Below, piece by piece: positions 32,080 to 43,513 of a stretch of 64,000 bases of DNA. A program made the translations under genes and the position numbers. This stretch comes from Candidatus Methanomethylophilaceae archaeon. GTDB lineage: Archaea > Thermoplasmatota > Thermoplasmata > Methanomassiliicoccales > Methanomethylophilaceae. The notes under the pieces were generated by a model. That model made no database searches. It was not told the origin of the DNA and worked only from the letters and a program-made list of their open reading frames with translations. The stretch spans positions 558,181 through 622,180 of the forward strand of contig OY781044.1 in the NCBI GenBank assembly GCA_963676235.1, in the 5' to 3' direction. Every line of letters starts with the position of its first letter. The first letter of the stretch is position 1.

Positions 32080-35000
32080 TTATATCTTGATCTGAACCTC
32101 TTTGGATTCCAAGAGTTTCTTGTATCCTATGGGCATGACCTTGAGGAATCTTCCGATGTTTCCTTCCCAATCCGCCAATATCTCCTTGGCCTTCCGGCTT
32201 CCAGTATATTTCACATGATTCTCCAGGATCTTCTTCAATTCATTGCGGTCGGTCTGGGCTTCCACTAAAGAAAGTTCTACCATGTCCATGTTGCAGTGCC
32301 TATCGAAATCACCGCCATCATTCAATACATAGGCTATTCCAGCAGACATCCCTGCAGCGAAATTCCTTCCCGCCTCACCGATGACGACCACGCGACCGCC
32401 TGTCATATATTCGCAGGCGTGGTCACCCACACCTTCAGCAACGGCGATCGCGCCGCTATTACGGACACAGAATCTTTCTCCGACCTTTCCTGAGATGTAT
32501 ACTTCACCGGATGTCGCACCATACAGCGCAGTATTCCCCGCGATAACATTGCATCTGGGAACATGTTCCTCATGGAATATCATTATCTTTCCTCCAGACA
32601 AACCTTTTCCGACATAATCGTTGGCCTGACCCTTCAATATGAACGATATTCCTTTGTAAAGGAACGCCCCGAAACTCTGTCCTGCCGTTCCGTTGAATGT
32701 TATCTGGATCGTATTATCCTTGAACTGCTTGTCTCTTCTTGCAGCCTCTCCTGAAAGCATCGTTCCCACTGAACGATCAATATTGCATATACCATATTCC
32801 AGCTTAACAGGCGTTCCTGCATCCAGAGAGATGTTCGCATCCTTGATCAGACGTCTGTCGAGAATATCCTTGGTGATATCTTCCTGACCTATCGTACAGA
32901 TCCTTGTTCCAGGAACTGTCTCCGTTATCAATGATATGTCTACGGTGGATGCCTTCTTTCCGTCAACATGCTTGCGGACAATCAGGTCGGCACGTCCGAT
33001 TATCTCATCTATGGAGCGGAATCCCATTGCTGAAAGCTGTCTTCTGACATCCTCAGCAAGGAACCTGAAATAATTTATGAGATTCTCTGGTGTTCCCTTG
33101 AACTTGGAACGCTTATCGGGATCCTGAGTTGCAATACCTACGGGACATGTGTTGGTCTGACATTTACGGCACATGATGCAACCCAACGCGACCATGGGTG
33201 CAGTTGCAAAACCATATTCCTCCGCGCCTAGGAGAGCGGATATTATAACGTCCCTTCCGGTCTTCATCTGACCATCCACCTGGAGCCTTACCTTTCCTCT
33301 CAGACCACTTATCATGAGGGTCTGCTGAGCTTCAGCGATTCCAAGTTCCCACGGCAAACCTGCATATCTTATAGAGGACAAGGGGCTTGCGCCTGTTCCA
33401 CCATCCGCTCCCGAGATCAGAATGATATCTGCACCGGCTTTTGCAACACCCGCTGCTACTGTTCCTACTCCTGCCTCAGCTACGAGCTTGACGCTTACTT
33501 TAGCAGTAGGATTGATGCATTTCATATCGAAGATCAATTGCTTAAGATCCTCAATAGAATAAATATCGTGATGAGGAGGTGGGGAAATAAGCGTTATTCC
33601 TGGAATCGTATGCCTTGTAGCTGCGATCACCTCATCGACTTTGAATCCTAACAGCTGTCCACCCTCACCGGGTTTTGCTCCCTGTGCTACCTTGATCTGT
33701 ATCTCTTCCGCATTGACGAGATACTGCGCAGTCACACCGAATCTTCCAGATGCGATCTGCTTGATCTTTGAACCGAGATCCCTGCCGTCGGCGGTCAGTT
33801 TGAACCTTGCGGGATCCTCTCCGCCTTCTCCTGTGTTGCTACGGGAGCCGATCCTGTTCATCGCATCCGCAAATGTTTCATGTGATTCCTTGCTAATCGC
33901 ACCGAACGATATACCCTCACCGATGAATCTCTTCATTATCGATGCTGCTGGTTCGACTTCCTTCAGAGGAACAGGCGTTCCCTTCTTGACCTCCATGAGG
34001 TCACGGATGAAGAATGCACCTGAATCTTCCAATTCTGCGAAAGCCTTGTAGGATTCCTCATCGTTCTCACGAACAGCTGAATGCAGTGCCTTGACTGATT
34101 CAGGATTCCAAGAATGCTTCTCTCCGCCTTTTTTGTAATTGTAAACTCCTCTGTCTTCTGACAAGGGATCCTTTTCCCCGGAAGAGAATGCCGCTTTATG
34201 CGACGACATCGCTTCTTCCGATATCTCCTTCAATTTCAATCCATTTATGCGCGAGACCGTATTCCCGAAATATTTGTTCGCAACATCCTTGTCTATACCA
34301 ACGGCCTCGAACAGCCTCGAGCCACGATACGATCTTATCGTAGCGATACCCATCTTGGACATTATCTTGAGGATTCCCTTTTCCAATGCCTTGACGTAGT
34401 TGTGTTCCGCCGTACTGACATCGATCCTAAGGGTCTCGTCCTTTACCATATTCTCGATCAGCGCATATGGTATGTATGGATTGACGACATTTGCACCGTA
34501 TCCGAACAACAATGCAAAATGCATGACCTCCCTAGGTTCTCCTGACTCCAATATTATACTTGTCTGAACACGCTTCTTCTTGGCTACCAGGCTCTGATGA
34601 ACAGCCGATACGGCCAATAATGAAGGAATCGAAACATTATCTTTATCGACACACCTATCTGAAAGGATAATATACGAATTACCAGCATCTACCGCTGCTT
34701 CAGCCTTCCTGCAGATGTCTTTCAGGGTCTTTTCCATTCCTTCCGGACCGTCAACCATGGGAAATGTTATCGGAATGACTGCGGCATTGAAACCTCTGTA
34801 TTTCAAATTCTTAAGGAGATCCAATTCCCTATTGGTTATAACAGGATGCCTGACCTTCACGATATTGCAATGCATAGACGTTGGATCAAGGACATTTTGA
34901 TGAATGGAACCTATGTATCCGGTTATCGACATTACCAACTCCTCTCTGATAGGATCTATCGGAGGGTTAGTGACCTGAGCAAATGATTGTCTGAAATAAT

Positions 35001-36525
35001 TGAATAATCTCTGAGGCTTGTCGGAAAGGACGGCCAGTGGAGCATCGAATCCTGTTGAACCCACAGGTTCCTTGCCCTGAGATGCCATTGGCTCTATGAT
35101 CTTGGTGATATCTTCTTGAGTGTAACCGAACTCAAGAAGTTTCTTGTTCAGATCTGGAACAGAACGTCCAACCTCCCTTCCAGAGGACACCTCATCCAAT
35201 TCCACTCTTTTTTTCTCTAACCAGTCTCTATAAGGATATGCAGATGCAAGTTCATTTTTGATTTCAGAATCATACATGATCTTGCCTTTCTGAGTATCGA
35301 TTATCATCATCTTTCCTGGCATCAAACGACCCGTTTCCTCTACATCAGACTCTGGTATCTGTATAACACCAGATTCCGATGCCAGGATGAACAACCCATC
35401 CTTTGTCAGCGAATATCTTGCCGGACGAAGACCGTTCCTGTCAAGCATACCGCCTGCATATCTTCCGTCTGTGAACAGAACTGCTGCCGGACCGTCCCAC
35501 GGCTCCATGAGAATACTATGATATTCGTAGTAAGCCTTCAAACTGTCAGATATGGGATTTTTATTGTTCCAAGACTCCGGGATCATGATAGACAATGCGT
35601 TGGGCATTGACTTTCCGGACATGGTCAGGAATTCGAACACATTATCGAGCGTGGCACTGTCGCTCATACCTCCCTGCATTATCGGGAACAATGATTTGAT
35701 ATCAGGAAGGACTGAAGATTCTAAAACACTCTCCCTTGCTTTCATCCATGATCTGTTACCGCGGATGGTGTTGATCTCACCGTTGTGGCAGAGCATCCTG
35801 AAAGGCTGTGCTAGTTTCCACATGGGTAATGTGTTTGTACTGAACCTTGAATGCACCATTGCGATCGCTGATTTGAAATTTGGATCTGTAAGATCCTTAT
35901 AATAAGTTCTAATCTGAGCAGGCGTGAGCATTCCCTTGTATGTTATAGAACGTGTCGAAAGGCTGCAGATATAGAAATCCTCAGCAGAATCGATCTTTGA
36001 TGCTTCTATCCTGTTGCCAACTCTTTTTTGAACAGCGTACAGCTTATGCTCCAGAATATCAGAACTATCATAACTTGTGAGGAAAACCTGGATTATCCTT
36101 GGCTCGGTGTCGAGTGCTAAAGGTCCTGGAACCGTATGATCGATAGGAACTTCACGATTTGCGATCTTATGCAGACCATAACGTTCACATTCTTCATCCA
36201 AGATTTCCAAACAAGCATCCTGATCCTTCTTATTCTTAGGTAAAAAGATCAGCCCTGTTCCGTATCTTCCCAATTCCGGAACAGGTATATCTAGGGTCTT
36301 GATGAAATCATGGGGGATCTGCACCGTTATTCCTGTACCGTCACCAGTCTTACCATCTGCATTCTCTGCACCACGATGAGCCATGTTCTCAAGGATCTGG
36401 AGTCCATACTCCACAATCCTATGATCCTTGCTACCGCTGACATTCACTGCGAGTCCTACTCCGCATGAATCTCTCTCGTTTATCGGATCGTAGAGACCCA
36501 AAGTACCTCTCATGACAGACACCAT
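32080..36525 (-). CDS. gltB: glutamate synthase large subunit, fused bacterial-type (amidotransferase + FMN/Fe-S + GXGXG domains)
   Basis: Ntn Cys context GLYDP..ERDSCGVG, and a central CRKCQTNTCPVGIATQ 3Fe-4S motif. The track start is GTG 36573, which overlaps glnN. The ATGs at 36525 or 36513 fit the usual short propeptide. Confidence 0.9.
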   Translation of the reverse strand: MVSVMRGTLGLYDPINERDSCGVGLAVNVSGSKDHRIVEYGLQILENMAHRGAENADGKTGDGTGITVQIPHDFIKTLDIPVPELGRYGTGLIFLPKNKKDQDACLEILDEECERYGLHKIANREVPIDHTVPGPLALDTEPRIIQVFLTSYDSSDILEHKLYAVQKRVGNRIEASKIDSAEDFYICSLSTRSITYKGMLTPAQIRTYYKDLTDPNFKSAIAMVHSRFSTNTLPMWKLAQPFRMLCHNGEINTIRGNRSWMKARESVLESSVLPDIKSLFPIMQGGMSDSATLDNVFEFLTMSGKSMPNALSIMIPESWNNKNPISDSLKAYYEYHSILMEPWDGPAAVLFTDGRYAGGMLDRNGLRPARYSLTKDGLFILASESGVIQIPESDVEETGRLMPGKMMIIDTQKGKIMYDSEIKNELASAYPYRDWLEKKRVELDEVSSGREVGRSVPDLNKKLLEFGYTQEDITKIIEPMASQGKEPVGSTGFDAPLAVLSDKPQRLFNYFRQSFAQVTNPPIDPIREELVMSITGYIGSIHQNVLDPTSMHCNIVKVRHPVITNRELDLLKNLKYRGFNAAVIPITFPMVDGPEGMEKTLKDICRKAEAAVDAGNSYIILSDRCVDKDNVSIPSLLAVSAVHQSLVAKKKRVQTSIILESGEPREVMHFALLFGYGANVVNPYIPYALIENMVKDETLRIDVSTAEHNYVKALEKGILKIMSKMGIATIRSYRGSRLFEAVGIDKDVANKYFGNTVSRINGLKLKEISEEAMSSHKAAFSSGEKDPLSEDRGVYNYKKGGEKHSWNPESVKALHSAVRENDEESYKAFAELEDSGAFFIRDLMEVKKGTPVPLKEVEPAASIMKRFIGEGISFGAISKESHETFADAMNRIGSRSNTGEGGEDPARFKLTADGRDLGSKIKQIASGRFGVTAQYLVNAEEIQIKVAQGAKPGEGGQLLGFKVDEVIAATRHTIPGITLISPPPHHDIYSIEDLKQLIFDMKCINPTAKVSVKLVAEAGVGTVAAGVAKAGADIILISGADGGTGASPLSSIRYAGLPWELGIAEAQQTLMISGLRGKVRLQVDGQMKTGRDVIISALLGAEEYGFATAPMVALGCIMCRKCQTNTCPVGIATQDPDKRSKFKGTPENLINYFRFLAEDVRRQLSAMGFRSIDEIIGRADLIVRKHVDGKKASTVDISLITETVPGTRICTIGQEDITKDILDRRLIKDANISLDAGTPVKLEYGICNIDRSVGTMLSGEAARRDKQFKDNTIQITFNGTAGQSFGAFLYKGISFILKGQANDYVGKGLSGGKIMIFHEEHVPRCNVIAGNTALYGATSGEVYISGKVGERFCVRNSGAIAVAEGVGDHACEYMTGGRVVVIGEAGRNFAAGMSAGIAYVLNDGGDFDRHCNMDMVELSLVEAQTDRNELKKILENHVKYTGSRKAKEILADWEGNIGRFLKVMPIGYKKLLESKEVQIKI

Positions 36526-36530
36526 CGGAC

Positions 36531-38714
36531 TCAGCTGACGAACAGAAGTTCTCTGTACTTGGGCAGAGGCCACATCTCATCATCTACGATCATTTCCAAT
36601 GCATCGAGGTGTTTTCTTATATCTTCTATGCGAGGTACGACCTCGTCATGATATCCAACAGCCATCTTACGGCCTTCTTCTGACAAAGCCAACTTATCGC
36701 ATATATCGTCCATCTGATATGCTATATCCCTCGAAGCACAAATATGCTCAGAGATCTCCTTTATCATAGCAAGTTCATGTGAAGCAAGTTGCTCGAACTC
36801 ATTCTCTGAATATAGTTCCTTGATCTTGAACACATTGTCCAAAAGAATGGATTGATATCTTGTTGCCACAGGTATGATGTGGTTCGATGTGAGATCACTT
36901 AAAACACGGGCCTCGATCTCAACCTTCTTACAATAGAGTTCCCAACGTACCTCGTTCCTTGCATTGAGTTCGACATCGGTCATCACACATGTGTCTTTGT
37001 ATATGCCGATGGTCTGTGCTGTTGTACATACATCATAGATCACAGGTACAGATGTCTCGCAATCGAGTCCGCGCTTCAAAGCCTCGACCTTCCACTCATC
37101 GGAATATCCATTTCCATCAAAACATACAGGCTTTGCAGCTCTGTATGTCTCACGTACTTCATCGAGAACTGCCTGCATAACTGGTGTTCCTGCTTTGATT
37201 CTACTATCCACTGCCTTCTTGAATTGTTTAAGCTGATATGCAACGACGGTATTTAGTACGGTCATCGGTGCCGCACAATTAGCTGAGGAACCGACTGCCC
37301 TGAACTCGAACCTGTTTCCAGTGAACGCAAACGGAGATGTTCTGTTCCTGTCTGTGTTATCCACTAGAAGTTCGGGAATCTGCGGAATGCCTAAGCTATA
37401 TCCCTTCTTGGATCCGATCTTAACCATGTCTTTAGTGTTCAGAAGCTCTTCGAATGCCTCGGTGACCTGTCTTCCCAGGAATGAGGAGATGATCGCCGGG
37501 GGCGCCTCGTTAGCTCCAAGCCTGTGGGCGTTGGTCGCTGTTGAAATAGAGGCCTTCATCAGACCGTTGTTATCGTAAACAGCTTTGAGTACGTTAGCCA
37601 TGAACGTCAAGAATCTAAGATTCTCCTCATCTGTCTTACCGGGTGACATCAATCCGATGCCATCGGTTGTACCCAGTGACCAGTTACAGTGTTTTCCTGA
37701 ACCGTTGATGCCGCCAAACGGCTTCTCGTGAAGCAATGCTTTGAATCCGTGACGCTCCGCAACCGTTTTCATTATTGACATCAACAATAAATTATGATCG
37801 TTTGCAAGGTTAACTTCCTCGTACACAGGTGCAAGTTCAAACTGGTTAGGTGCGACCTCGTTGTGTCTCGTCTTGACTGGGATCCCAAGCTTGTATGCTT
37901 CGTATTCCAGATCCTTCATGAATTCTAGTGCTCTCTTCGGAATAGACCCGAAGTAATGGTCGTCAAGCTGCTGATTCTTCGCACTGTCGTGACCCAAAAG
38001 TGTGCGCTCCGAAAGTATTAGATCCGGACGTTGCGCCCATAATGCAGTATCAATAAGGAAATATTCCTGTTCCCAACCTAAATATGATTCGACTGCTGCA
38101 TTCTTCATTCCGAAATATTCCAAGACCTCGGATGTTGCCTTTGAAACTGCAGTGATGGATTTCAGAAGAGGTGTCTTATAATCAAGTGCCTCCCCAGTGT
38201 ATGAAATGAATACAGTAGGGATACAAAGTACATCGCCTAGAATAAATGCAGGCGACGACGGATCCCATGCGGTATATCCTCTTGCCTCAAAAGTATTCCT
38301 TAATCCCCCGCTGGGAAATGATGATGCATCCGGTTCCTGCTGACAAAGAAGCTTTCCGCTGAAATTCTCGAGCGATGTGCCCTGTCCGTGCGGTTCCGCG
38401 AAAGAATCGTGTTTCTCTGCAGTTCCTCCAGTCAAAGGCTGGAACCAATGCGTATAATGCGTTGCGCCCATATCCATTGCCCAACGCTTCATGCCGACTG
38501 CTACATACTCTGCTACAGATTTATCAAGGGTAACGCCCTGTTCGATCGATTCATAAACGACTCTTCTGGTCTCAGAAGAAAGGTATTTTCTCATCGTCTC
38601 CCTGTTGAAAACATTACATCCATAATAATCAGATGTTGCAGGCGCCGGCGGTGCTACGATCACAGGTTCCTTGCGAAATGCTTCTTCGACTGCTCTGAAT
38701 CTGCTGTTGCTCAT
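36531..38714 (-). CDS. glnN: glutamine synthetase type III
   Basis: The 727-aa length class is that of GSIII. GS catalytic blocks are present: NGSGKHCNWS, NAHRLGANEAPP, NRTSPFAFTGNRFEFR. Confidence 0.85.
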   Translation of the reverse strand: MSNSRFRAVEEAFRKEPVIVAPPAPATSDYYGCNVFNRETMRKYLSSETRRVVYESIEQGVTLDKSVAEYVAVGMKRWAMDMGATHYTHWFQPLTGGTAEKHDSFAEPHGQGTSLENFSGKLLCQQEPDASSFPSGGLRNTFEARGYTAWDPSSPAFILGDVLCIPTVFISYTGEALDYKTPLLKSITAVSKATSEVLEYFGMKNAAVESYLGWEQEYFLIDTALWAQRPDLILSERTLLGHDSAKNQQLDDHYFGSIPKRALEFMKDLEYEAYKLGIPVKTRHNEVAPNQFELAPVYEEVNLANDHNLLLMSIMKTVAERHGFKALLHEKPFGGINGSGKHCNWSLGTTDGIGLMSPGKTDEENLRFLTFMANVLKAVYDNNGLMKASISTATNAHRLGANEAPPAIISSFLGRQVTEAFEELLNTKDMVKIGSKKGYSLGIPQIPELLVDNTDRNRTSPFAFTGNRFEFRAVGSSANCAAPMTVLNTVVAYQLKQFKKAVDSRIKAGTPVMQAVLDEVRETYRAAKPVCFDGNGYSDEWKVEALKRGLDCETSVPVIYDVCTTAQTIGIYKDTCVMTDVELNARNEVRWELYCKKVEIEARVLSDLTSNHIIPVATRYQSILLDNVFKIKELYSENEFEQLASHELAMIKEISEHICASRDIAYQMDDICDKLALSEEGRKMAVGYHDEVVPRIEDIRKHLDALEMIVDDEMWPLPKYRELLFVS

Positions 38715-38788
38715 AGAAAGGTATTGAGACTTACGTATTAATATAGTTTTCGAATAAACTTACTAAATGTTCGTAAATAATCAATCTG

Positions 38789-38806
38789 ATTAGACAAATG
38801 TCTAAT
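38789..38806. promoter_or_regulatory. inverted repeat ATTAGACA-AA-TGTCTAAT in the glnN / 38966-operon divergent region
   Basis: Read directly. 8-bp perfect arms, 75-92 nt upstream of the glnN ATG. Confidence 0.3.
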
Positions 38807-38965
38807 AGAAATAAATCTTAAAACTGTTATTGACAGGATGCGCACCTATATTAGTAATTTTACACAATTAATATATGAAGAAACGAGATGAGTTCAGACA
38901 ACTACTCTAACAACAAAGAAAGATATATCCCCTAAACAACATGCACCGGCACAGAAAGTGAGAAC

Positions 38966-39886
38966 ATGGCGTTGATATTCAAATCAGGAGACGAACTGTT
39001 CGATCAAGGTGTAGACCTTATCAAACGCAAGGAATTTGCCAAAGCAAAATCTAACTTCCAGAAATCCGTGGAAAAAGACGGAAAGAACGCAGAGATCGCA
39101 AACATCTACATTTCAATCATAGATGTATATTCCGATCCCAATTCTGCAGATCGCCTAGAATTCTTGGCAAGCAGACTCGAAGCAACAAACATAGGAGAAT
39201 TCGAATTCGGACTGACAAGCATAGAATCGAAGAAATTCGCCGTAGAACTTAGACTCACAGCCGAACGTATAAGAATATTCGCAATGAATGGAAATTCCAA
39301 TGTCAGAGAAGAAAAGGGAAATAAACTTCTCCAACTCGCACAAAAATTCCAGATGCAGATTGGAAATGACGGCCTTAAGCTTAATGAATTGATATCTAAC
39401 GATGTAAGCATAACAGGTATCAGAGAAAGTCTCAGTATCCAAGCTCTAGGTTATGAGACCTTAGCATCTGCCGTCGTCCTTACAGATCCCAAGAAAGCAG
39501 CGGAGATGTTGCAGAACGCATACAACTACCGCAGACAGACCGGAGAGGACGTAGGGGATGACATGAACCTCATTAAAGCCTATTCCAAAACAGCAAAATG
39601 CTGGATCTGCGGGAGATCTACGACCGGTGAAGGGATACATTTCATAACCATGTCCAGCGAGATCACTCCTTTCATGAGGACAGGACAAGATGACATCCAG
39701 AAATCAGCTCCCGAGAACTTCGAATCTGTCTATGTGTGCCGTCCCTGTTATTCAGCGATTTCAAGAAGGGCTGATGTAATATCTAAACAATATTTCGATA
39801 GAGGTATGCAAGAACTGCGCAACACTGAGGCCAGACTTCAAATGGAAATTGCAGAAGTACGCGCGTACGCTTCGATGAGACGGTGA
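38966..39886 (+). CDS. hypothetical helical protein with a C-terminal-half Zn ribbon (gene 1 of a 5-gene operon)
   Basis: CWIC-N37-CRPC, with a coiled-coil tail. RBS GAAAGTGAG. Confidence 0.6.
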   Translation: MALIFKSGDELFDQGVDLIKRKEFAKAKSNFQKSVEKDGKNAEIANIYISIIDVYSDPNSADRLEFLASRLEATNIGEFEFGLTSIESKKFAVELRLTAERIRIFAMNGNSNVREEKGNKLLQLAQKFQMQIGNDGLKLNELISNDVSITGIRESLSIQALGYETLASAVVLTDPKKAAEMLQNAYNYRRQTGEDVGDDMNLIKAYSKTAKCWICGRSTTGEGIHFITMSSEITPFMRTGQDDIQKSAPENFESVYVCRPCYSAISRRADVISKQYFDRGMQELRNTEARLQMEIAEVRAYASMRR

Positions 39887-41433
39887 ATATATTGGATGAT
39901 ATTGTCACACTCAGATGTAAATACTGCGGAGCACCACTGGACAAAAAGGATCTGGAGTCGAACGACCCATACGTCACATGTTCAAGCTGTGGTACAACAC
40001 AGCAGAGAATCGATGCAAAAGCATACCTCGATCAAATGATGGGGCAAGTCCAGAATTGGATTAGCAAAGCACTTCCGGGCGGATTCTCATTGTCTCAGTC
40101 TGAAAATGTAGATTCGGTTGCCAGGTATAATATCTTCAACACCAATATAAAACCCAAGATAGACGCAGAATACACCGAATACAAGTTCGCAACGAACACA
40201 CTCATCTCAAATCCGATGATGGTACTGCCGTTCACTACGGACAATTCAGCAGTACCTGTACATTCTTCAACCAAGGCGTTCGAATTCAATGCCAAAGCAA
40301 AAAGTGTTGAAGCTTTAGCAGTAGATGTGAACAGTAAGGCACTCATTACTGATGCTGAGGACCTTGCCTCCGCTTACGCCCTGATCATCAACAATACAAA
40401 ACTTTTACAAGAAGACAAGCCTGGAAGATATATTCTGCTAGCTAACAACTTCACCGAGGCCGCAAAGGCCTTTTCAAAAGTCAAAGGATACGGTTCGGCA
40501 ACAACACGTTTCGAAGCACTGGCACAAATCTCTACAGGATGTGAAAAACTCCTGAACGGAGATGCCATGGGTTCTCAGTCATATTTTGAACAAGGCACAA
40601 CCAAGCTAGAAGCATTGAAGACAAATCTCTTCAGCGATATGAATCTAGGTATCATGTACCAAGCCGTGAACCTTGAGATCTCACAAGCACATATACTTAC
40701 AGACATATCGAGATTCATAACCACTGGAGTGAGCAGCGATCCTCTAAAGATCCTGAACGTCATCAAAAAAGTATTCACATTCCAATATGCGAAATCAGGA
40801 AACTGGGGTTACCTCTTAAGCAATAAAGACAGATTCAATGAGATCTTCGAATACCTTTCCAATGCGATGAGCGCAAAGAACGGCAAAACACTGCCTATCA
40901 CAGCAGGAAGCGGAGATTATCTCATTCCATTTTGGGATATCGACCTGAAATACAGCTTCCAGACAGGAATGGCATGGAAAAAGAAAAGCGTTGAAGTCTC
41001 TGAGGACATTCTGGTTCCCGCAGATTTTGTGATCGACAGTGCATGTTTATCCAATCCATCATCAGCGCTTACAGATATATTCTCTATACGTCCTGAAAAA
41101 AGCATTCTTGCAGGCATCAGCGGAAGTGAAACAAGCATTAGTGGAGGAGAAGGTATCGGTAAATTATCGATGGCTTCTCAGAATTCTCCAGGAGCAAGAA
41201 AGATCGTAATACCATTAAGTACAAAGAAAGAGGCTGAGAAGGTAGTCACCGATTATCTTACAAACCGTATGAGCAGCGATTCCAAGCTCAAATTAAGCAA
41301 ACCATACGTCAAATGCCTGATATACATACCATGCAAAATTAACGGCGATAATCTCGCAGTACCAGAAGAGTTCGGATCGCTTATACCCGAACGGACAAGA
41401 AGAACTAAAGTCTCAGAATTAATAACAATATAA
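39883..41433 (+). CDS. hypothetical 516-aa protein with an N-terminal Zn ribbon (gene 2)
   Basis: CKYC-N16-CSSC at the N terminus. The GTG start overlaps the upstream stop (GTGA). Confidence 0.6.
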   Translation: MNILDDIVTLRCKYCGAPLDKKDLESNDPYVTCSSCGTTQQRIDAKAYLDQMMGQVQNWISKALPGGFSLSQSENVDSVARYNIFNTNIKPKIDAEYTEYKFATNTLISNPMMVLPFTTDNSAVPVHSSTKAFEFNAKAKSVEALAVDVNSKALITDAEDLASAYALIINNTKLLQEDKPGRYILLANNFTEAAKAFSKVKGYGSATTRFEALAQISTGCEKLLNGDAMGSQSYFEQGTTKLEALKTNLFSDMNLGIMYQAVNLEISQAHILTDISRFITTGVSSDPLKILNVIKKVFTFQYAKSGNWGYLLSNKDRFNEIFEYLSNAMSAKNGKTLPITAGSGDYLIPFWDIDLKYSFQTGMAWKKKSVEVSEDILVPADFVIDSACLSNPSSALTDIFSIRPEKSILAGISGSETSISGGEGIGKLSMASQNSPGARKIVIPLSTKKEAEKVVTDYLTNRMSSDSKLKLSKPYVKCLIYIPCKINGDNLAVPEEFGSLIPERTRRTKVSELITI

Positions 41434-41445
41434 GGGGGAACAGAA

Positions 41446-41811
41446 ATGGCTATGAACAACAAAACGATGTCTGCGGTACTATTAGGCGCAGCCATCATCG
41501 CGCTCGCTATTGGATTGATAATCTACAGCGTCGTAAGGAAAGATTTCTTCGTGATCATCTGGTCCTTTGCACTGATATTTGGTATCGCTATCTGTATCAC
41601 TGTATCGGCATACAGCAACGCTGAGAAACATGGACCTTCTGAAATGATGTATAGACTCAGCACCGGAATGGTAATGGTACTCATCGGAATCATAGGGTTC
41701 ATCAATATATTCGCATCAATAGACGCATTGATCCTGATTGCAATATTCCTTATCGGACTTGCATTCATAGGCATGATGGTAGCAATTACAAACAGTAAGA
41801 AGGTGGCATAA
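41446..41811 (+). CDS. small 4-TM membrane protein (gene 3)
   Basis: Four hydrophobic helices. GGGGGA RBS. Confidence 0.6.
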   Translation: MAMNNKTMSAVLLGAAIIALAIGLIIYSVVRKDFFVIIWSFALIFGIAICITVSAYSNAEKHGPSEMMYRLSTGMVMVLIGIIGFINIFASIDALILIAIFLIGLAFIGMMVAITNSKKVA

Positions 41812-42348
41812 ATGACTACAGATAAAGTAGTTGGGGACCAGATGGACAAGAATAAATCTCTCATCGAGAGGATATGCCTTTACATCCCCGGGTATAGAGG
41901 GTACAAGCAGAAAAACCTCAGAAGAGATGAGGACAGAGCAGTCAGAACAGAAGTTGCCCGTGCTCTTGAAGCAACTAAGATGGATCTTGCAACCGTACAG
42001 AGAGCAACTGTAGGAAATCTGGATCTCATGAGAGATACTGAGAGAATCAGAACAAAAACAGACAAATATTACATCGATGTGAAAAAAGCTGTCAACGGAT
42101 ACAGTGCATTGCACGACTCAGTGAAGATCATGGAATCCGAATTGGACAATCTCATAGAATGGGATGCAAAACTCATGGATGACGCTGTCGCATTAAAAGA
42201 AGAGACATCTGCCATAGTAGATTCCATTGACAAAGGAAATACAGATATCAAAAAACCACTCAGAGACCTCGAGAGGACCATTGACCAACTTTTAGAGGAT
42301 TATAACGGCAGAGAAAAGATCATGAAAGGATTCCAAGAAAAGGAGTGA
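41812..42348 (+). CDS. charged all-helical/coiled-coil protein (gene 4)
   Basis: The start abuts the previous stop (TAAATG). GGTGG RBS. Heptad-like charged sequence. Confidence 0.6.
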   Translation: MTTDKVVGDQMDKNKSLIERICLYIPGYRGYKQKNLRRDEDRAVRTEVARALEATKMDLATVQRATVGNLDLMRDTERIRTKTDKYYIDVKKAVNGYSALHDSVKIMESELDNLIEWDAKLMDDAVALKEETSAIVDSIDKGNTDIKKPLRDLERTIDQLLEDYNGREKIMKGFQEKE

Positions 42349-42353
42349 ATTAA

Positions 42354-43478
42354 ATGGCAGCAGAAAAAAAATCTAATGTTGTATTTTGGAAAGATCAGGG
42401 ACCTGACGATATCATCTACAACTCAGAGTACGATGACCTCAGGACGATCACCTCTGTGACAGTTCCTGAACACGCAGTCGCATTGTTCATCAGGGATGGA
42501 CAGCTCGTCGGAACTCTCGAACCAGGAAGACATGTCATCACTTCCGCAAATATTCCATGGTTGACAAAACTGTACAACCTGGCACTCGGTTACAAAGAGA
42601 CTCCATTCAAAGTCTGGATCGTTTTCATCTCGCTGAAAATGTTTAACGGAAGATGGGGCATCAGATCGATGATCAAAGCCTCTGAGGAATATCAAGTTCC
42701 TATCGTTCTCATGGCTAATGGAGATTTCCAGTTCCGTATCAATGATGTCTCGGTTTTCTACACACAGATACTCGGCGGAATGAGCACATATTCCACCGGA
42801 GATGTCAACGCGTTCATGAAGAGCTTCATCAACGAGCAGATCATCCAACAGATGACCTCTCAATACTACATGGACATCATGAACAATCTCGAAAAGGCAT
42901 CCACAACAACGAAGATCCTTATCGAGCCCTACTTCACACAGAGAGGCATAGAGCTACTTTCGTTGAAGATCAGCGAAGCACAAACAACCGATGAAGACAG
43001 GACCAAAGTATTCGAATATCTCCAATTCAGCAGCAAGAACGGAGAATCCTTCAAGAAATACGAGGTCATGGATAGGATGGCAGATGCAATAGGAACGTCG
43101 ACGGGAGGCGCAGCAATGGGCTCAGGAATGCTCTTATTCCCTCAAATGTACCAACAACTCCAACAACAACCTATTAATGGTGTACAAAGTCAGAATCAAC
43201 AGCCACAACAACAGAAGGTCATGTGTCCTACATGCGGTGCATTGAATGACTATCCGTACAAATTCTGTAGCAGCTGCGGTCAACCGTCACCGATGATGAA
43301 CCGCACCGGACAACCTGTGATGATGGCTGGTAACAATACAGCACCTGTCACAGGAACAACTCCTGCAGCAACTAGTACAGGAAAGAAATTCAAGCTCTGT
43401 CCGTATTGCGGAATGGACATAAGTTCTCTTCCGAAGACGCCTAAATTCTGCCCATATTGTGCAGAACAGCTTAATTAA
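42354..43478 (+). CDS. SPFH (Band_7_1 / YdjI-like) domain protein with a Q-rich linker and two C-terminal Zn ribbons (gene 5)
   Basis: The N-domain pattern VPEHAVALFIRDGQLVGTLEPGRHVITSANIPWL...FKVWIVFIS...RWG resembles the YdjI family. It is followed by QQLQQQP..QNQQPQQQ, CPTCG..CSSCG and CPYCG..CPYC. AAGGAG RBS. Confidence 0.7.
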   Translation: MAAEKKSNVVFWKDQGPDDIIYNSEYDDLRTITSVTVPEHAVALFIRDGQLVGTLEPGRHVITSANIPWLTKLYNLALGYKETPFKVWIVFISLKMFNGRWGIRSMIKASEEYQVPIVLMANGDFQFRINDVSVFYTQILGGMSTYSTGDVNAFMKSFINEQIIQQMTSQYYMDIMNNLEKASTTTKILIEPYFTQRGIELLSLKISEAQTTDEDRTKVFEYLQFSSKNGESFKKYEVMDRMADAIGTSTGGAAMGSGMLLFPQMYQQLQQQPINGVQSQNQQPQQQKVMCPTCGALNDYPYKFCSSCGQPSPMMNRTGQPVMMAGNNTAPVTGTTPAATSTGKKFKLCPYCGMDISSLPKTPKFCPYCAEQLN

Positions 43479-43479
43479 C

Positions 43480-43513
43480 TTTTTTTCAGGACCGGTTTCA
43501 ACCCGGTCCTTTT
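43480..43513 (+). terminator. T7 tract plus hairpin AGGACCGG/CCGGTCCT plus TTT
   Basis: Read directly, immediately after the operon's last stop codon. Confidence 0.5.

What the first reader, a model, noticed from the sequence alone, without database searches (positions are those of the whole stretch)
38966..43478. Uncharacterised five-gene operon: two Zn-ribbon proteins, a 4-TM protein, a coiled-coil protein and a YdjI-like SPFH/Zn-ribbon protein (candidate archaeal Psp-like membrane-stress or remodelling system)
Seen in sequence: five same-strand genes are packed as one unit, with a GTGA overlap at 39883..39886, a 12-nt gap, a TAA-ATG abutment at 41809..41814 and a 5-nt gap. Genes 1 and 3-5 carry purine-rich RBS sequences (GAAAGTGAG, GGGGGA, GGTGG, AAGGAG). 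A T7 tract plus hairpin closes the unit at 43480..43513. Gene 1 (306 aa) is helical with CWIC-N37-CRPC and a coiled-coil tail. Gene 2 (516 aa) has an N-terminal CKYC-N16-CSSC ribbon followed by a large domain of unknown type. Gene 3 (121 aa) has four TM helices. Gene 4 (178 aa) is soluble, highly charged and all-helical. Gene 5 (374 aa) has an SPFH/Band_7_1-like N-domain, a poly-Q linker and two more CxxC..CxxC ribbons. Established knowledge: the Band_7_1-type SPFH protein YdjI of Bacillus subtilis is encoded in the pspA-ydjGHI operon and is reported to tether PspA to the membrane. PspA/Vipp1 belong to the ESCRT-III superfamily. Inference: by analogy, gene 4 could be a divergent PspA/ESCRT-III-like polymerising protein. 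Genes 1, 2 and 5 would be Zn-ribbon adaptors and gene 3 the membrane anchor. That would make this a membrane-integrity or remodelling module not described for this archaeal lineage. I recognise no enzymatic domain, so a structural or scaffolding function is most likely. A defence or abortive-infection role cannot be excluded.
Basis: partly seen in the sequence, partly recalled or inferred. Interest (0 to 1): 0.8.

Follow-up and report, generated by a model that had tools for sequence, protein, structure and literature searches.

The report
SPFH scaffold operon with uncharacterised partner

Summary
The five-gene operon is real, at the stated coordinates. It is conserved as a block in other Methanomassiliicoccales.

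Gene 5 is a solid Band_7_1 SPFH protein with a YdjI-like build: no TM segment, a poly-Q linker and two C-terminal Zn ribbons.

Gene 4 is not detectably PspA or ESCRT-III. It has no PspA_IM30 or Snf7 profile hit. hhalign against PspA gives a probability of 0.3%. The AlphaFold model is a compact four-helix bundle whose Foldseek matches are generic.

Gene 4 instead founds a large unnamed family:
- It comprises at least 1198 clusters at 50% identity, about 175 aa each.
- Its signature is IPGYxGYKEKExRRExD..R … GY.GFFD, and no Pfam model covers it.
- It sits next to a Band_7_1 gene in 78 of 82 archaeal loci and in 5 of 6 bacterial loci.

The archaeal core cassette is a 4-TM protein (gene 3-like), the four-helix protein, then Band_7_1, with 0–3 Zn-ribbon genes that share gene 2's ribbon. 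Gene 1 and most of gene 2 are specific to Methanomassiliicoccales.

Best reading: a membrane-anchored SPFH scaffold complex, analogous in logic to B. subtilis PspA-YdjGHI, with a different, non-ESCRT-III partner. No defence or viral signal was found.

Verdict: partly supported. It is a new variant of a known kind and moderately interesting.

The parts
38715..38965 (+). Upstream intergenic region with the candidate promoter. An A/T-rich TATA-like stretch lies around 38847-38879. There is a 5' UTR with the purine-rich GAAAGTGAG before the g1 ATG.
   Evidence: Read directly. TAnTAGTAAaTTaAaACA is conserved with the syntenic locus L002. Promoter function is inferred, not tested. No Rfam match.
38966..39886 (+). 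g1: 306-aa soluble protein with one C4 Zn ribbon (CWIC 212 / CRPC 258, nt 39599-39748). It is an accessory subunit specific to Methanomassiliicoccales.
   Evidence: ORF. Cysteine motifs and no TM. Only a weak TPR_2 hit. Orthologs head the cassette in L001 and L002. No profile relationship to the pan-archaeal Zn-ribbon family, to g2 or to g4.
39883..41433 (+). g2: 516-aa soluble protein in three parts: an N-terminal Zn ribbon (residues 12-36, nt 39916-39990), a helical domain (~78-332) and an alpha/beta domain (~337-516).
   Evidence: ORF. AF2 model pLDDT 79.8. The Zn ribbon is homologous to that of the recurrent archaeal neighbour family (hhalign prob 95%, E 3.5e-8). The rest has no significant Pfam, PDB or Foldseek match. 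257 homologs were found, and those that carry a source name are Methanomassiliicoccales/Thermoplasmatales archaea.
41446..41811 (+). g3: 121-aa protein with four TM segments. Proposed membrane anchor.
   Evidence: Hydropathy. A ~117-aa 4-TM protein occupies the cassette in 70 of 80 other archaeal loci, mostly directly upstream of the g4 homolog. hhalign g3 vs that family: prob 90%, E 1.5e-6.
41812..42348 (+). g4: 178-aa soluble N-terminal helix plus four-helix bundle. It is a member of a large unnamed family with the signature IPGYxGYKxKxxRRxxDxxxR (residues 25-45, nt 41884-41946) and GY.(G)F.D (96-102). Proposed obligate partner or adaptor of the SPFH protein.
   Evidence: AF2 pLDDT 81, pTM 0.76. 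Exhaustive profile search: 1198 clusters at E<1e-3, nearly all ~175 aa and full length. Invariant P26, R38, D41, R45, D118, R167. Adjacent to Band_7_1 in 78/82 archaeal and 5/6 bacterial loci.
42354..43478 (+). g5: 374-aa soluble SPFH protein. It has a Band_7_1 domain (residues 33-214, nt 42450-42995), a low-complexity/poly-Q linker, and two C4 Zn ribbons (291-308, nt 43224-43277; 349-369, nt 43398-43460).
   Evidence: PF13421 E 4e-22, 79 bits against a cutoff of 24, plus DZR/Zn_ribbon hits. No TM; cysteine motifs.
43480..43513 (+). Operon end: a T7 tract, a G+C-rich hairpin, then TTTT.
   Evidence: Sequence. RNA fold -14.1 kcal/mol, z = -2.9, with 0 of 200 shuffles as stable. Termination itself is inferred.

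Best explanation
The operon encodes a membrane-anchored SPFH (Band_7_1) scaffold complex. It is the Methanomassiliicoccales version of a widespread prokaryotic cassette.

Shown:
- g5 is a soluble YdjI-type SPFH protein with C-terminal Zn ribbons.
- g4 belongs to a large, sharply conserved, unnamed four-helix-bundle family. That family is co-inherited with Band_7_1 genes, usually directly upstream and often translationally coupled, across many archaeal phyla and at least three bacterial phyla.
- A small 4-TM protein (g3-like) and 0-3 proteins carrying the same Zn ribbon as g2 accompany the pair in archaea.
- In bacteria a different membrane protein, DUF5693 or a small 3-TM protein, often takes the membrane slot.

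Inferred mechanism:
- g5 has no membrane anchor of its own, so it is brought to the membrane by its operon partners.
- g3 supplies the anchor.
- g4 acts as the dedicated adaptor or assembly factor. It uses the single conserved polar site at one pole of its bundle (P26, Y31, R38, D41, R45, G96, Y97, D118, R167) to bind the SPFH protein.
- g2 and g1 are lineage-elaborated Zn-ribbon accessory subunits that bridge or regulate the assembly.
- The complex would organise or stabilise a membrane domain, with envelope maintenance or stress as the likely physiological setting. This is by analogy with B. subtilis PspA-YdjGHI, where YdjI needs YdjG and YdjH for membrane localisation.
- g4 fills the slot of the non-SPFH soluble partner but is not an ESCRT-III/PspA homolog.
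For: - g5 hits Band_7_1 well above the curated threshold, carries Zn ribbons and has no TM segment.
- The five-gene block is conserved with different flanking genes in L001. 27 g2/g4 homolog pairs share the same longest-contig length, and NCBI locus tags place g2 and g4 two genes apart in three further genomes.
- The g4 family has 1198 clusters, nearly all full-length single-domain proteins, and a strict motif.
- A Band_7_1 homolog is present in 78/82 archaeal loci. It is directly downstream in 56, and one Zn-ribbon gene lies between in the other 22.
- In bacteria, 5/6 loci have the g4 homolog directly upstream of Band_7_1, with gaps of 0-5 nt in five of the eight loci measured, window included.
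- The T-H-B core with variable Z genes is seen across the archaeal loci.
- g3 vs the 4-TM family gives prob 90%. The g2 ribbon vs the Z family gives prob 95%.
- All invariant g4 residues map to one pole of the predicted bundle.
- Literature: YdjI is soluble and depends on YdjG/YdjH for membrane foci (PMC8581546). YdjG begins with Zn ribbons (PMC11237479).
- The neighbours are housekeeping genes and there is no composition anomaly.
Against: - No physical interaction, localisation or phenotype has been tested. The adaptor role of g4 rests on gene adjacency alone.
- The pole clustering of invariant residues is deduced from helix topology, not from coordinates.
- The g3 homology signal could be inflated by TM composition.
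- One bacterial locus (L086) has the g4 homolog without Band_7_1. Two archaeal loci with enough flank (L042, L046) lack a detectable Band_7_1.
- The 80 archaeal loci are the best tblastn matches to one sub-profile, so they are not an unbiased sample. The reverse statistic, the fraction of Band_7_1 genes that have a g4-family neighbour, was not measured.
- The physiological role in membrane stress is pure analogy.
Confidence: 0.5

Rival explanations
1. One reading: g4 is a highly divergent PspA/Vipp1/ESCRT-III-type protein. It polymerises on the membrane and is tethered there by the YdjI-like g5, making this an archaeal Psp system.
For: - g4 sits in an operon with a YdjI-type SPFH protein and an N-terminal-ZnR protein, as PspA does in B. 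subtilis (PMC8581546, PMC11237479).
- g4 is all-helical with an extra N-terminal helix.
- Some family members are fused to DUF4178, a domain found in PspA operons (PMC11237479).
- JGI labels two members 'phage shock protein A'.
- An ancient SPFH-ESCRT-III link has been proposed (PMC11188069).
Against: - 15 family members show no PspA_IM30 or Snf7 hit, nine scanned to E = 10 and the rest to E = 0.01-1, while the E. coli PspA control scores 9e-49.
- hhalign of the family profile vs PspA gives prob 0.3%.
- The profile matches no PspA, Vipp1 or ESCRT-III chain in the PDB at E<=1.
- Foldseek PDB top 50 are generic four-helix bundles, best E = 0.11.
- A phage PspA/IM30 model in BFVD matches only at noise level (E 0.9, TM 0.26-0.33, rmsd 27 A).
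- The helices are 25-33 residues long and form a compact bundle (pTM 0.76), not a long hairpin.
- The N-terminal helix is hydrophilic (mean H -0.2 to -0.4, against +0.34 for PspA helix a0).
- The strictly invariant polar loop motifs are unlike the loosely conserved PspA family.
Confidence: 0.07
2. [quoted passage not shown]
For: - Makarova et al. report an SPFH protein with coiled-coil and Zn-ribbon domains, Zn-ribbon proteins and helical-bundle modules in archaeal ESCRT neighbourhoods (PMC11188069).
- The g2 helical domain has weak Bro1-like Foldseek hits (prob 0.82, E 1.6).
- Four-helix bundles that bind Zn fingers have a precedent in Vps28-C:Vps36 (PMC11188069).
Against: - There is no Vps4/AAA ATPase or ESCRT-III gene in the cassette or in any of the 88 loci examined next to it.
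- No VPS28, Snf7 or BRO1 Pfam hit.
- The Bro1-like hits are not significant.
- The g4-Band_7_1 pair also occurs in bacteria, which lack ESCRT-I/II.
Confidence: 0.1
3. The cassette is an anti-virus defence or abortive-infection system, or a mobile or viral module.
For: - It has no recognisable housekeeping function.
- It has several Zn ribbons.
- One bacterial relative (L087) lies near AAA/Trypco2 genes on the opposite strand.
Against: - No significant PADLOC hit for any of the five proteins; the best is g2 vs HEC-08 at E 0.004 and 14 bits, over the Zn ribbon.
- PHROGs hits only to the g5 Zn ribbon.
- No relatives on 2.9 million viral contigs with two different profiles.
- Neighbours are housekeeping genes: glutamine synthetase and GltB, OMP decarboxylase, MCM. 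The archaeal-locus neighbours resembling lysyl-tRNA synthetase and thymidylate kinase were judged by eye and not scanned.
- G+C content is like the surroundings.
- Conservation is broad and looks vertical, with no effector enzyme.
Confidence: 0.04
4. g4 is primarily a sensor or regulator rather than a structural adaptor. Its conserved pole would bind a small ligand or lipid headgroup, for example a polyamine-related signal, and gate SPFH assembly.
For: - The best Foldseek matches include ligand-binding four-helix sensor domains: Tar (2asr, 1jmw, 4z9i) and a histidine-kinase sensor (4k0d).
- The invariant Arg/Asp/Tyr cluster sits at one pole.
- Fusions occur to DUF4178, a component of PspA-polyamine operons, and to an anti-sigma-like zf-HC2 (PMC11237479).
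Against: - All Foldseek hits are non-significant (E >= 0.1).
- No ligand-binding family matches.
- Strict co-inheritance and translational coupling with Band_7_1 fit a stoichiometric partner at least as well.
Confidence: 0.15

Closest known systems
Bacillus subtilis pspA-ydjGHI operon (PspA, YdjG, YdjH, YdjI)
   Same: Both have a soluble Band_7_1 SPFH protein with a low-complexity linker and a C-terminal Zn ribbon (YdjI vs g5). Both have a partner that starts with a Zn ribbon (YdjG vs g2 and the archaeal Z family). Both have a membrane-protein partner needed as an anchor and an additional soluble helical protein. All are in one operon with no enzyme.
   Different: There is no PspA here; g4 is a four-helix-bundle family unrelated to PspA by sequence or predicted fold. 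There is no TPM-domain YdjH; the membrane protein is a 121-aa 4-TM protein. g2 has no TM segment, and its similarity to the YpeB/PepSY-like part of YdjG could not be shown. Gene order differs, and g1 is an extra component.
Other SPFH-partner gene pairs (stomatin-NfeD, flotillin YqiK-YqiJ/YuaF, HflK/C-FtsH)
   Same: The principle is the same: an SPFH scaffold protein encoded next to, and dependent on, a dedicated partner protein at the membrane.
   Different: Those SPFH proteins carry their own membrane anchor and long coiled-coil regions, and their partners are NfeD-type or protease proteins. Here the SPFH protein is soluble, and the partner is a soluble four-helix bundle plus a separate small TM protein.
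NCBIfam NF047596 'LIMLP_15305 family protein' (Leptospira)
   Same: g4 and ten distant relatives align over essentially the full 175-position model (E 6e-9 to 3e-17). They belong to the same superfamily and have the same size.
   Different: Scores of 21-63 bits are far below the curated equivalog cutoff of 210 bits. The NCBIfam model names only the Leptospira branch and assigns no function. No paper describes the protein.
Archaeal 'Meth_adaptin' ESCRT loci (Makarova et al. 2024)
   Same: Both contain an SPFH protein with a Zn ribbon, together with Zn-ribbon proteins and small helical-bundle modules, in archaea.
   Different: Those loci are built around Vps4 and ESCRT-III. This cassette and its relatives contain neither.

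Membership tests
PspA/IM30 - ESCRT-III superfamily (for g4) | Significant match to the PspA_IM30 (PF04012) or Snf7 (PF03357) profiles | tested here: not met
   No such hit for g4 (E<=1), for 10 distant relatives (E<=0.01) or for 4 further relatives including the two JGI-labelled 'PspA' proteins (E<=10). The E. coli PspA control scored 9.1e-49 in the same run.
PspA/IM30 - ESCRT-III superfamily (for g4) | Profile-level similarity to a bona fide PspA, or to PspA/Vipp1/ESCRT-III chains of known structure | tested here: not met
   hhalign of the 113-sequence family profile vs E. coli PspA: probability 0.33%. hmmsearch of the same profile vs all PDB sequences: only coiled-coil noise at E>=0.002, with no PspA, Vipp1, CHMP or Snf7 chain.
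PspA/IM30 - ESCRT-III superfamily (for g4) | ESCRT-III fold: a long a1-a2 helical hairpin with shorter a3-a5 packed on it | tested here: not met
   The AF2 model (pLDDT 81, pTM 0.76) has four helices of 25-33 residues in a compact bundle. Foldseek PDB top 50 are generic four-helix bundles (IncA, Tar, FAT, talin) with best E 0.11. A PspA/IM30 model in BFVD matches only at TM 0.26-0.33 and E 0.9. Caveat: this is a predicted structure in a single conformation.
PspA/IM30 - ESCRT-III superfamily (for g4) | N-terminal amphipathic membrane-binding helix (a0) | tested here: not met
   The g4 N-terminal helix has mean Eisenberg hydrophobicity of -0.37 to -0.22, against +0.34 for PspA residues 2-19. This region is poorly conserved in the family.
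PspA/IM30 - ESCRT-III superfamily (for g4) | Self-assembly into rings, rods or membrane-bound polymers | not testable with these tools
   Needs purified protein and EM, or multimer modelling.
SPFH / Band_7_1 (PF13421), YdjI type (for g5) | Band_7_1 domain above Pfam's gathering score | tested here: met
   PF13421 E 4e-22, 79.3 bits against a cutoff of 24, covering residues 33-214 and profile positions 15-198 of 211. Band_7 (PF01145) also scores above its cutoff.
SPFH / Band_7_1 (PF13421), YdjI type (for g5) | YdjI-like architecture: no TM segment, a low-complexity linker and C-terminal Zn ribbon(s) | tested here: met
   No hydrophobic segment, QNQQPQQQ at residue 280, two CxxC..CxxC ribbons, and DZR/Zn_ribbon/DUF7577 hits. 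The YdjI description is from PMC8581546.
SPFH / Band_7_1 (PF13421), YdjI type (for g5) | Formation of large oligomeric rings or cages on membranes | not testable with these tools
pspA-ydjGHI-type Psp operon | A pspA gene in the operon | tested here: not met
   No PspA_IM30 hit among the five proteins. phmmer with E. coli PspA against all six-frame ORFs of the window and 85 loci gave only one 15-bit noise hit.
pspA-ydjGHI-type Psp operon | YdjG-like protein: N-terminal Zn ribbons, a YpeB/PepSY(NTF2)-like domain and a TM segment | tested here: inconclusive
   g2 has the N-terminal ribbon, which is homologous to that of the archaeal Z family (prob 95%). Z-family members give only sub-threshold PepSY hits (E 0.17-0.25). 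The g2 C-terminal domain vs the Z family is not significant (P 0.03-0.09). g2 has no TM segment.
pspA-ydjGHI-type Psp operon | YdjH-like membrane protein with a TPM domain | tested here: not met
   No TPM_phosphatase hit. g3 is a 121-aa 4-TM protein with no soluble domain.
NCBIfam NF047596 LIMLP_15305 family (for g4) | Score at or above the curated equivalog cutoff (210 bits) | tested here: not met
   36 bits, E 6e-9, aligned over profile positions 19-172 of 175. This makes it a relative, not a member of the equivalog.
Archaeal ESCRT (Meth_adaptin-type) locus | Adjacent Vps4-type AAA ATPase and ESCRT-III genes | tested here: not met
   No AAA, MIT or Snf7 hit in the five proteins. No such genes lie next to the cassette in L001, L002 or among the recurrent neighbour clusters of 80 archaeal loci.
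Known anti-phage defence systems (PADLOC) | A significant match to any defence-system protein model | tested here: not met
   Only 12-14-bit hits of the g2 Zn ribbon (E 0.004-0.035), and nothing for the other four proteins.

The most novel reading that the evidence does not exclude
The g4 family and Band_7_1 form an ancient two-protein membrane machine, shared by archaea and bacteria and independent of ESCRT-III. In this reading the four-helix protein is the effector rather than a passive adaptor. For example, it could change conformation or oligomerise at damaged or curved membrane once the SPFH ring has concentrated it there, doing the job that PspA does in the YdjI system. Alternatively, it could be a Zn-ribbon-binding hub, comparable to Vps28-C binding the Vps36 zinc finger, that wires the ribbon-bearing subunits together. 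Either way it would define a new, widespread class of membrane-maintenance system and give the orphan Band_7_1 SPFH subfamily its missing partner.
Probability: 0.15. Interest if true: 0.75.

Novelty: new variant of a known kind. Interest (0 to 1): 0.55.

Why it matters
SPFH proteins (stomatin, prohibitin, flotillin, HflK/C) organise membranes in all domains of life and usually work with a dedicated partner. The Band_7_1 branch has been studied only in B. subtilis, as YdjI, where it tethers PspA.

This analysis shows that across many archaeal phyla and several bacterial phyla the usual neighbour of Band_7_1 is not PspA. It is a large family with a sharply conserved motif, no Pfam model and no literature.

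Naming that family and its cassette (4-TM protein, four-helix protein, Band_7_1, plus Zn-ribbon proteins) does three things:
- It gives a concrete, testable handle on what soluble SPFH proteins do in archaea.
- It corrects automated 'phage shock protein A' labels.
- It cautions against reading every helical SPFH neighbour as ESCRT-III.

It does not reveal a new kind of biology by itself.

Tried and rejected
- PspA/ESCRT-III identity of g4: rejected after Pfam, hhalign, a PDB profile search, and Foldseek against PDB and BFVD.
- Homology of the g2 C-terminal alpha/beta domain to the helix+beta ('IPFW') modules of the pan-archaeal Zn-ribbon family, and hence to YdjG's YpeB/PepSY-like domain. The suggestive motif alignments did not reach significance (P 0.03-0.09), so the question is left open.
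- g1 as a paralog of g2, the Z family or g4: no signal.
- g3 as DUF350/YjfL: no Pfam hit.
- LemA and Vps28-C as relatives of g4: no Pfam hit, and neither appears in the Foldseek top 50.
- Bro1-like reading of the g2 helical domain: Foldseek E 1.6-2.5, not significant.
- Defence, viral or mobile origin: PADLOC, PHROGs, BFVD and two viral-contig scans were all negative.
- Structured RNA or riboswitch in the leader or within the operon: no Rfam match at E<=1.
- Sigma-70 and intrinsic-terminator consensus scan: counts no higher than in shuffled sequence, and the scan is not appropriate for an archaeon.
- The look-up of encoding contigs for the 100%-identical g2 protein found nothing on record.
A narrower sub-alignment was used instead, so the 80 loci returned are biased towards Thermoproteota-type sequences.
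- PDB sequence searches for all five proteins and for the Z family gave nothing.

Full report
OBSERVATION. The junctions are as described. There is a GTGA stop/start overlap, a 12-nt gap with GGGGGA, a TAA-ATG abutment behind GGTGG, and a 5-nt gap behind AAGGAG. GAAAGTGAG precedes g1.

The unit ends in a T7 tract plus a G+C-rich hairpin followed by TTTT. The hairpin folds at -14.1 kcal/mol, z = -2.9, with 0 of 200 shuffles as stable. g3 has four hydrophobic segments. g1, g2, g4 and g5 have none. The cysteine motifs and the poly-Q stretch of g5 are present. The only corrections concern spacing: 42 rather than 37 residues between the g1 CxxC pairs, and 17 rather than 16 in g2.

G+C content across the operon (0.41-0.43) matches the surroundings. 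No Rfam family matches the region. The sigma-70/terminator consensus scan is uninformative for an archaeon.

ORGANISM AND OPERON CONSERVATION. Homologs of g2 and g4 that carry a source name come from Methanomassiliicoccales: Methanomassiliicoccaceae, Ca. Methanoplasma, Methanogranum and Methanomethylophilaceae. A 100%-identical g2 protein lies on a 1.66-Mb contig.

The complete five-gene block (309/509/123/169/357 aa and 309/514/123/178/365 aa) recurs in two other contigs. L002 has the same upstream glutamine synthetase III and GltB genes. L001 has quite different neighbours: OMP decarboxylase upstream, a phosphatase and MCM downstream. In the hit tables, 27 g2 homologs and 27 g4 homologs share identical longest-contig lengths. 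NCBI locus tags place g2 and g4 two genes apart in three further genomes: FWH47_05445/05455, FWF07_00310/00320 and GX224_00960/00970. The operon is therefore a conserved unit in this order.

GENE 5. g5 matches Pfam Band_7_1 (PF13421) at E 4e-22 and 79 bits, against a gathering score of 24. It also matches Band_7, and its C-terminus matches several Zn-ribbon models. With no TM segment, a low-complexity Q-rich linker and terminal ribbons, it has the architecture described for B. subtilis YdjI (PMC8581546; PMC11237479).

GENE 4 IS NOT PspA/ESCRT-III.
- Pfam gives no PspA_IM30 or Snf7 hit for g4 at E<=1, for ten distant relatives at E<=0.01, or for four more at E<=10. The last four include two that JGI's pipeline calls 'phage shock protein A'.
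- hhalign of a 113-sequence family profile against that PspA gives probability 0.33%.
- The same profile finds no PspA, Vipp1, CHMP or Snf7 chain among all PDB sequences at E<=1.
- The AlphaFold2 model, built from a 33-sequence alignment (pLDDT 81, pTM 0.76), has an N-terminal helix (3-22) and four helices of 25-33 residues (38-65, 70-94, 108-140, 147-171). That is a compact up-down bundle, not the long ESCRT-III hairpin.
- Foldseek against the PDB gives nothing below E 0.1. The top 50 are generic four-helix bundles: IncA, Tar and sensor-kinase ligand-binding domains, FAT, talin, and designed bundles.
- Against BFVD, a phage 'PspA/IM30 family protein' appears only at E 0.9, TM 0.26-0.33 and rmsd 27 A.
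- The N-terminal helix is hydrophilic (mean hydrophobicity -0.2 to -0.4, against +0.34 for PspA helix a0).

The caveat is that this is one predicted conformation. Polymerisation cannot be tested here.

WHAT GENE 4 IS. An exhaustive HMMER search of 1.84 billion cluster representatives with the g4 profile found 1198 clusters at E<1e-3 and 537 at E<1e-10. Nearly all are 160-190 aa and match end to end.

The family has a sharp signature: E..I...IPG(Y/F).GY(K).(K/R)E.RR..D(K/R)..R before and at the start of helix 2, then A..GY.GFFD in the helix 3-4 loop. P26, R38, D41, R45, D118 and R167 are invariant, and G30, Y31, G96, Y97 and L111 are above 90% conserved, at a mean identity of only 32%. By helix topology all of these lie at one pole of the bundle, which suggests a single conserved interaction site.

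No Pfam family covers the protein. The only library match is NCBIfam NF047596 'LIMLP_15305 family protein'. It aligns over its full length but far below the equivalog cutoff (36 bits vs 210 for g4, and 21-63 bits for ten relatives). LIMLP_15305 appears in the searchable literature only as a flanking-gene label in a Leptospira sRNA table. Occasional fusions exist: a C-terminal DUF4178 (a domain reported in PspA-polyamine operons, PMC11237479), an N-terminal Zn ribbon, and an anti-sigma-like zf-HC2.

THE CONSERVED PARTNERSHIP. A scan of GTDB species representatives with a sub-profile of the family confirmed 465 loci. The best 80 come from Caldarchaeales, Bathyarchaeia, Nezhaarchaeota, Nitrososphaeria, other Thermoproteota and one Methanobacteriota MAG. 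I translated all ORFs of these loci plus L001 and L002 and searched them with the five window proteins.

A g5 (Band_7_1) homolog is present in 78 of the 82 loci. It lies directly downstream on the same strand in 56, and in the other 22 it is separated by exactly one gene of about 410 aa. Two of the four exceptions are truncated contigs.

All-against-all clustering of neighbouring ORFs showed two further recurrent same-strand partners:
- A 4-TM protein of about 117 aa, present in 70 loci and mostly directly upstream of the g4 homolog. hhalign against g3 gives probability 90%, E 1.5e-6.
- A family of 250-410-aa proteins beginning with, or containing, the ribbon C.NCGAP...C.YCG. It lies upstream in 47 loci and between the g4 and g5 homologs in 22. 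This ribbon is homologous to that of g2 (hhalign probability 95%, E 3.5e-8).

The architectures reduce to a core T-H-B (4-TM, four-helix, Band_7_1) with 0-3 Zn-ribbon genes (Z): THB, ZTHB, ZTHZB, ZZHBT and so on. The window's Z'-Z-T-H-B arrangement is one variant.

BACTERIA. A profile of bacterial-looking members retrieved 1466 proteins. Those with names are from Planctomycetota (Pirellulales, Thermoguttaceae), Armatimonadota and Bacillota. Of six contexts looked up, five have the g4 homolog directly upstream of a Band_7_1 gene: L083 and L087 (Pirellulales-type, with a longer Band_7_1 lacking a ribbon), L084 (Bacillota), L085 (Armatimonadota) and L088. One (L086) has the g4 homolog alone, near an integrase.

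The gap between the two genes is 0-5 nt in five of the eight loci measured. In three bacterial loci a 7-9-TM DUF5693 protein lies directly upstream, and in L083 a 114-aa 3-TM ORF follows. The theme in both domains is therefore a membrane protein, then the four-helix protein, then a soluble SPFH protein.

GENES 1 AND 2. The g2 AlphaFold model (pLDDT 79.8) shows the N-terminal ribbon, a helical domain (~78-332) and an alpha/beta domain (~337-516). Foldseek finds nothing significant. The best hits are E>=0.4 helical solenoids, including weak Bro1-domain matches. Neither domain alone hits Pfam.

The pan-archaeal Z proteins give sub-threshold PepSY hits (E 0.17-0.25). That agrees with the published description of YdjG as Zn ribbons followed by a YpeB-related domain (PMC11237479). 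My attempts to link g2's C-terminal domain to the Z family beyond the ribbon were not significant.

g1 has one ribbon and a weak TPR hit. It was detected only in the Methanomassiliicoccales loci and shows no profile similarity to the Z family, g2 or g4. g1 and most of g2 are thus lineage-specific elaborations.

ALTERNATIVES. Defence or viral origin is unlikely. PADLOC gave no significant hit. PHROGs hit only the g5 ribbon. No relatives were found on 2.9 million viral contigs with two profiles. The neighbours are housekeeping genes, and conservation is broad.

An ESCRT-accessory role is conceivable, because Makarova et al. found an SPFH+Zn-ribbon protein and helical-bundle modules in 'Meth_adaptin' ESCRT loci and proposed an ancient SPFH-ESCRT-III link (PMC11188069). 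But neither this cassette nor its relatives contain Vps4 or ESCRT-III, and the pair also occurs in bacteria.

A sensor role for g4 cannot be excluded. It is really a variant of the main model.

MECHANISM (inferred). By analogy with B. subtilis, soluble YdjI reaches the membrane only through YdjG and YdjH, and in turn localises PspA (PMC8581546). I propose the following, none of which is shown:
- g3 anchors the complex in the membrane.
- g4 uses its conserved pole to bind the SPFH protein, acting as its dedicated adaptor or assembly factor.
- g5 oligomerises into an SPFH scaffold.
- g2 and g1 are accessory Zn-ribbon subunits.

The physiological setting, membrane organisation or envelope stress, rests on analogy alone.

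VERDICT. The operon is a Psp-YdjGHI-like SPFH module in logic, but it has no PspA/ESCRT-III component. Its real interest is that g4 defines a large, unnamed family that is the near-constant partner of Band_7_1 SPFH proteins in archaea and bacteria. I found no paper describing this. I class it as a new variant of a known kind, namely SPFH-partner membrane scaffolds, and score interest at 0.55.

Noticed in passing
window 38790-38805: A near-perfect palindrome TTAGACAAATGTCTAA lies in the intergenic region between the divergent glutamine synthetase III gene (36531-38714, - strand) and g1. It is conserved in the syntenic locus L002 (ATTAGACATTTGTCTAGT). It is absent from L001, where the cassette has a different upstream neighbour. 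It is therefore probably an operator belonging to the GS gene, possibly for nitrogen regulation, rather than to the cassette.
   Followed up: partly
L084 2289-4283; L085 909-3116; L088 2176-4230: In three bacterial loci (Bacillota, Armatimonadota and one unassigned) a 664-735-aa DUF5693 protein with 7-9 predicted TM segments lies directly upstream of the g4 homolog and Band_7_1. This suggests a bacterial three-gene version of the module, with a different membrane component.
   Followed up: partly
proteins P0297, P0376, P0260, P0346 (g4-family representatives): Domain fusions of the g4-type bundle: a C-terminal DUF4178 (a domain reported in PspA-polyamine operons), an N-terminal Zn ribbon, and an N-terminal anti-sigma-like zf-HC2. 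Their genomic contexts could not be looked up.
   Followed up: no
proteins P0441, P0505, P0008, P0117, P0401: Automated source annotations of g4-family proteins are inconsistent and, where checked, unfounded. The labels include 'phage shock protein A', 'predicted nucleic acid-binding Zn-ribbon protein' and 'SMC interacting uncharacterized protein'. The two 'PspA' labels have no PF04012 support.
   Followed up: yes
window 40114-40890 (g2 residues ~78-332): The helical domain of g2 gives weak Foldseek matches to Bro1 domains (HD-PTP 5crv_A prob 0.82, E 1.6, TM 0.25/0.34; BROX; yeast Bro1). Bro1 domains bind ESCRT-III in eukaryotes. The match is not significant and may reflect a generic TPR-like solenoid.
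   Followed up: no
L020 8507-9739, L033 8507-9736 and 20 other archaeal loci: In 22 Bathyarchaeia-type loci a second Zn-ribbon protein of about 410 aa is inserted between the g4 and Band_7_1 homologs. Its ribbon is in mid-protein, and it has a Pro-rich linker and a C-terminal 'PWWF...DG.NG' module.
   Followed up: partly
L086 6001-6510: The one sampled bacterial locus where the g4 homolog is not followed by Band_7_1. Fructose-bisphosphate aldolase follows instead, and an rve_3 integrase gene lies 1.5 kb downstream. This is possibly a rearranged locus.
   Followed up: no
window 36531-36573: The mechanically called GltB ORF (32080-36573, GTG start) overlaps the 3' end of the glutamine synthetase III ORF by 43 nt. 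The true GltB start is probably further downstream.
   Followed up: no
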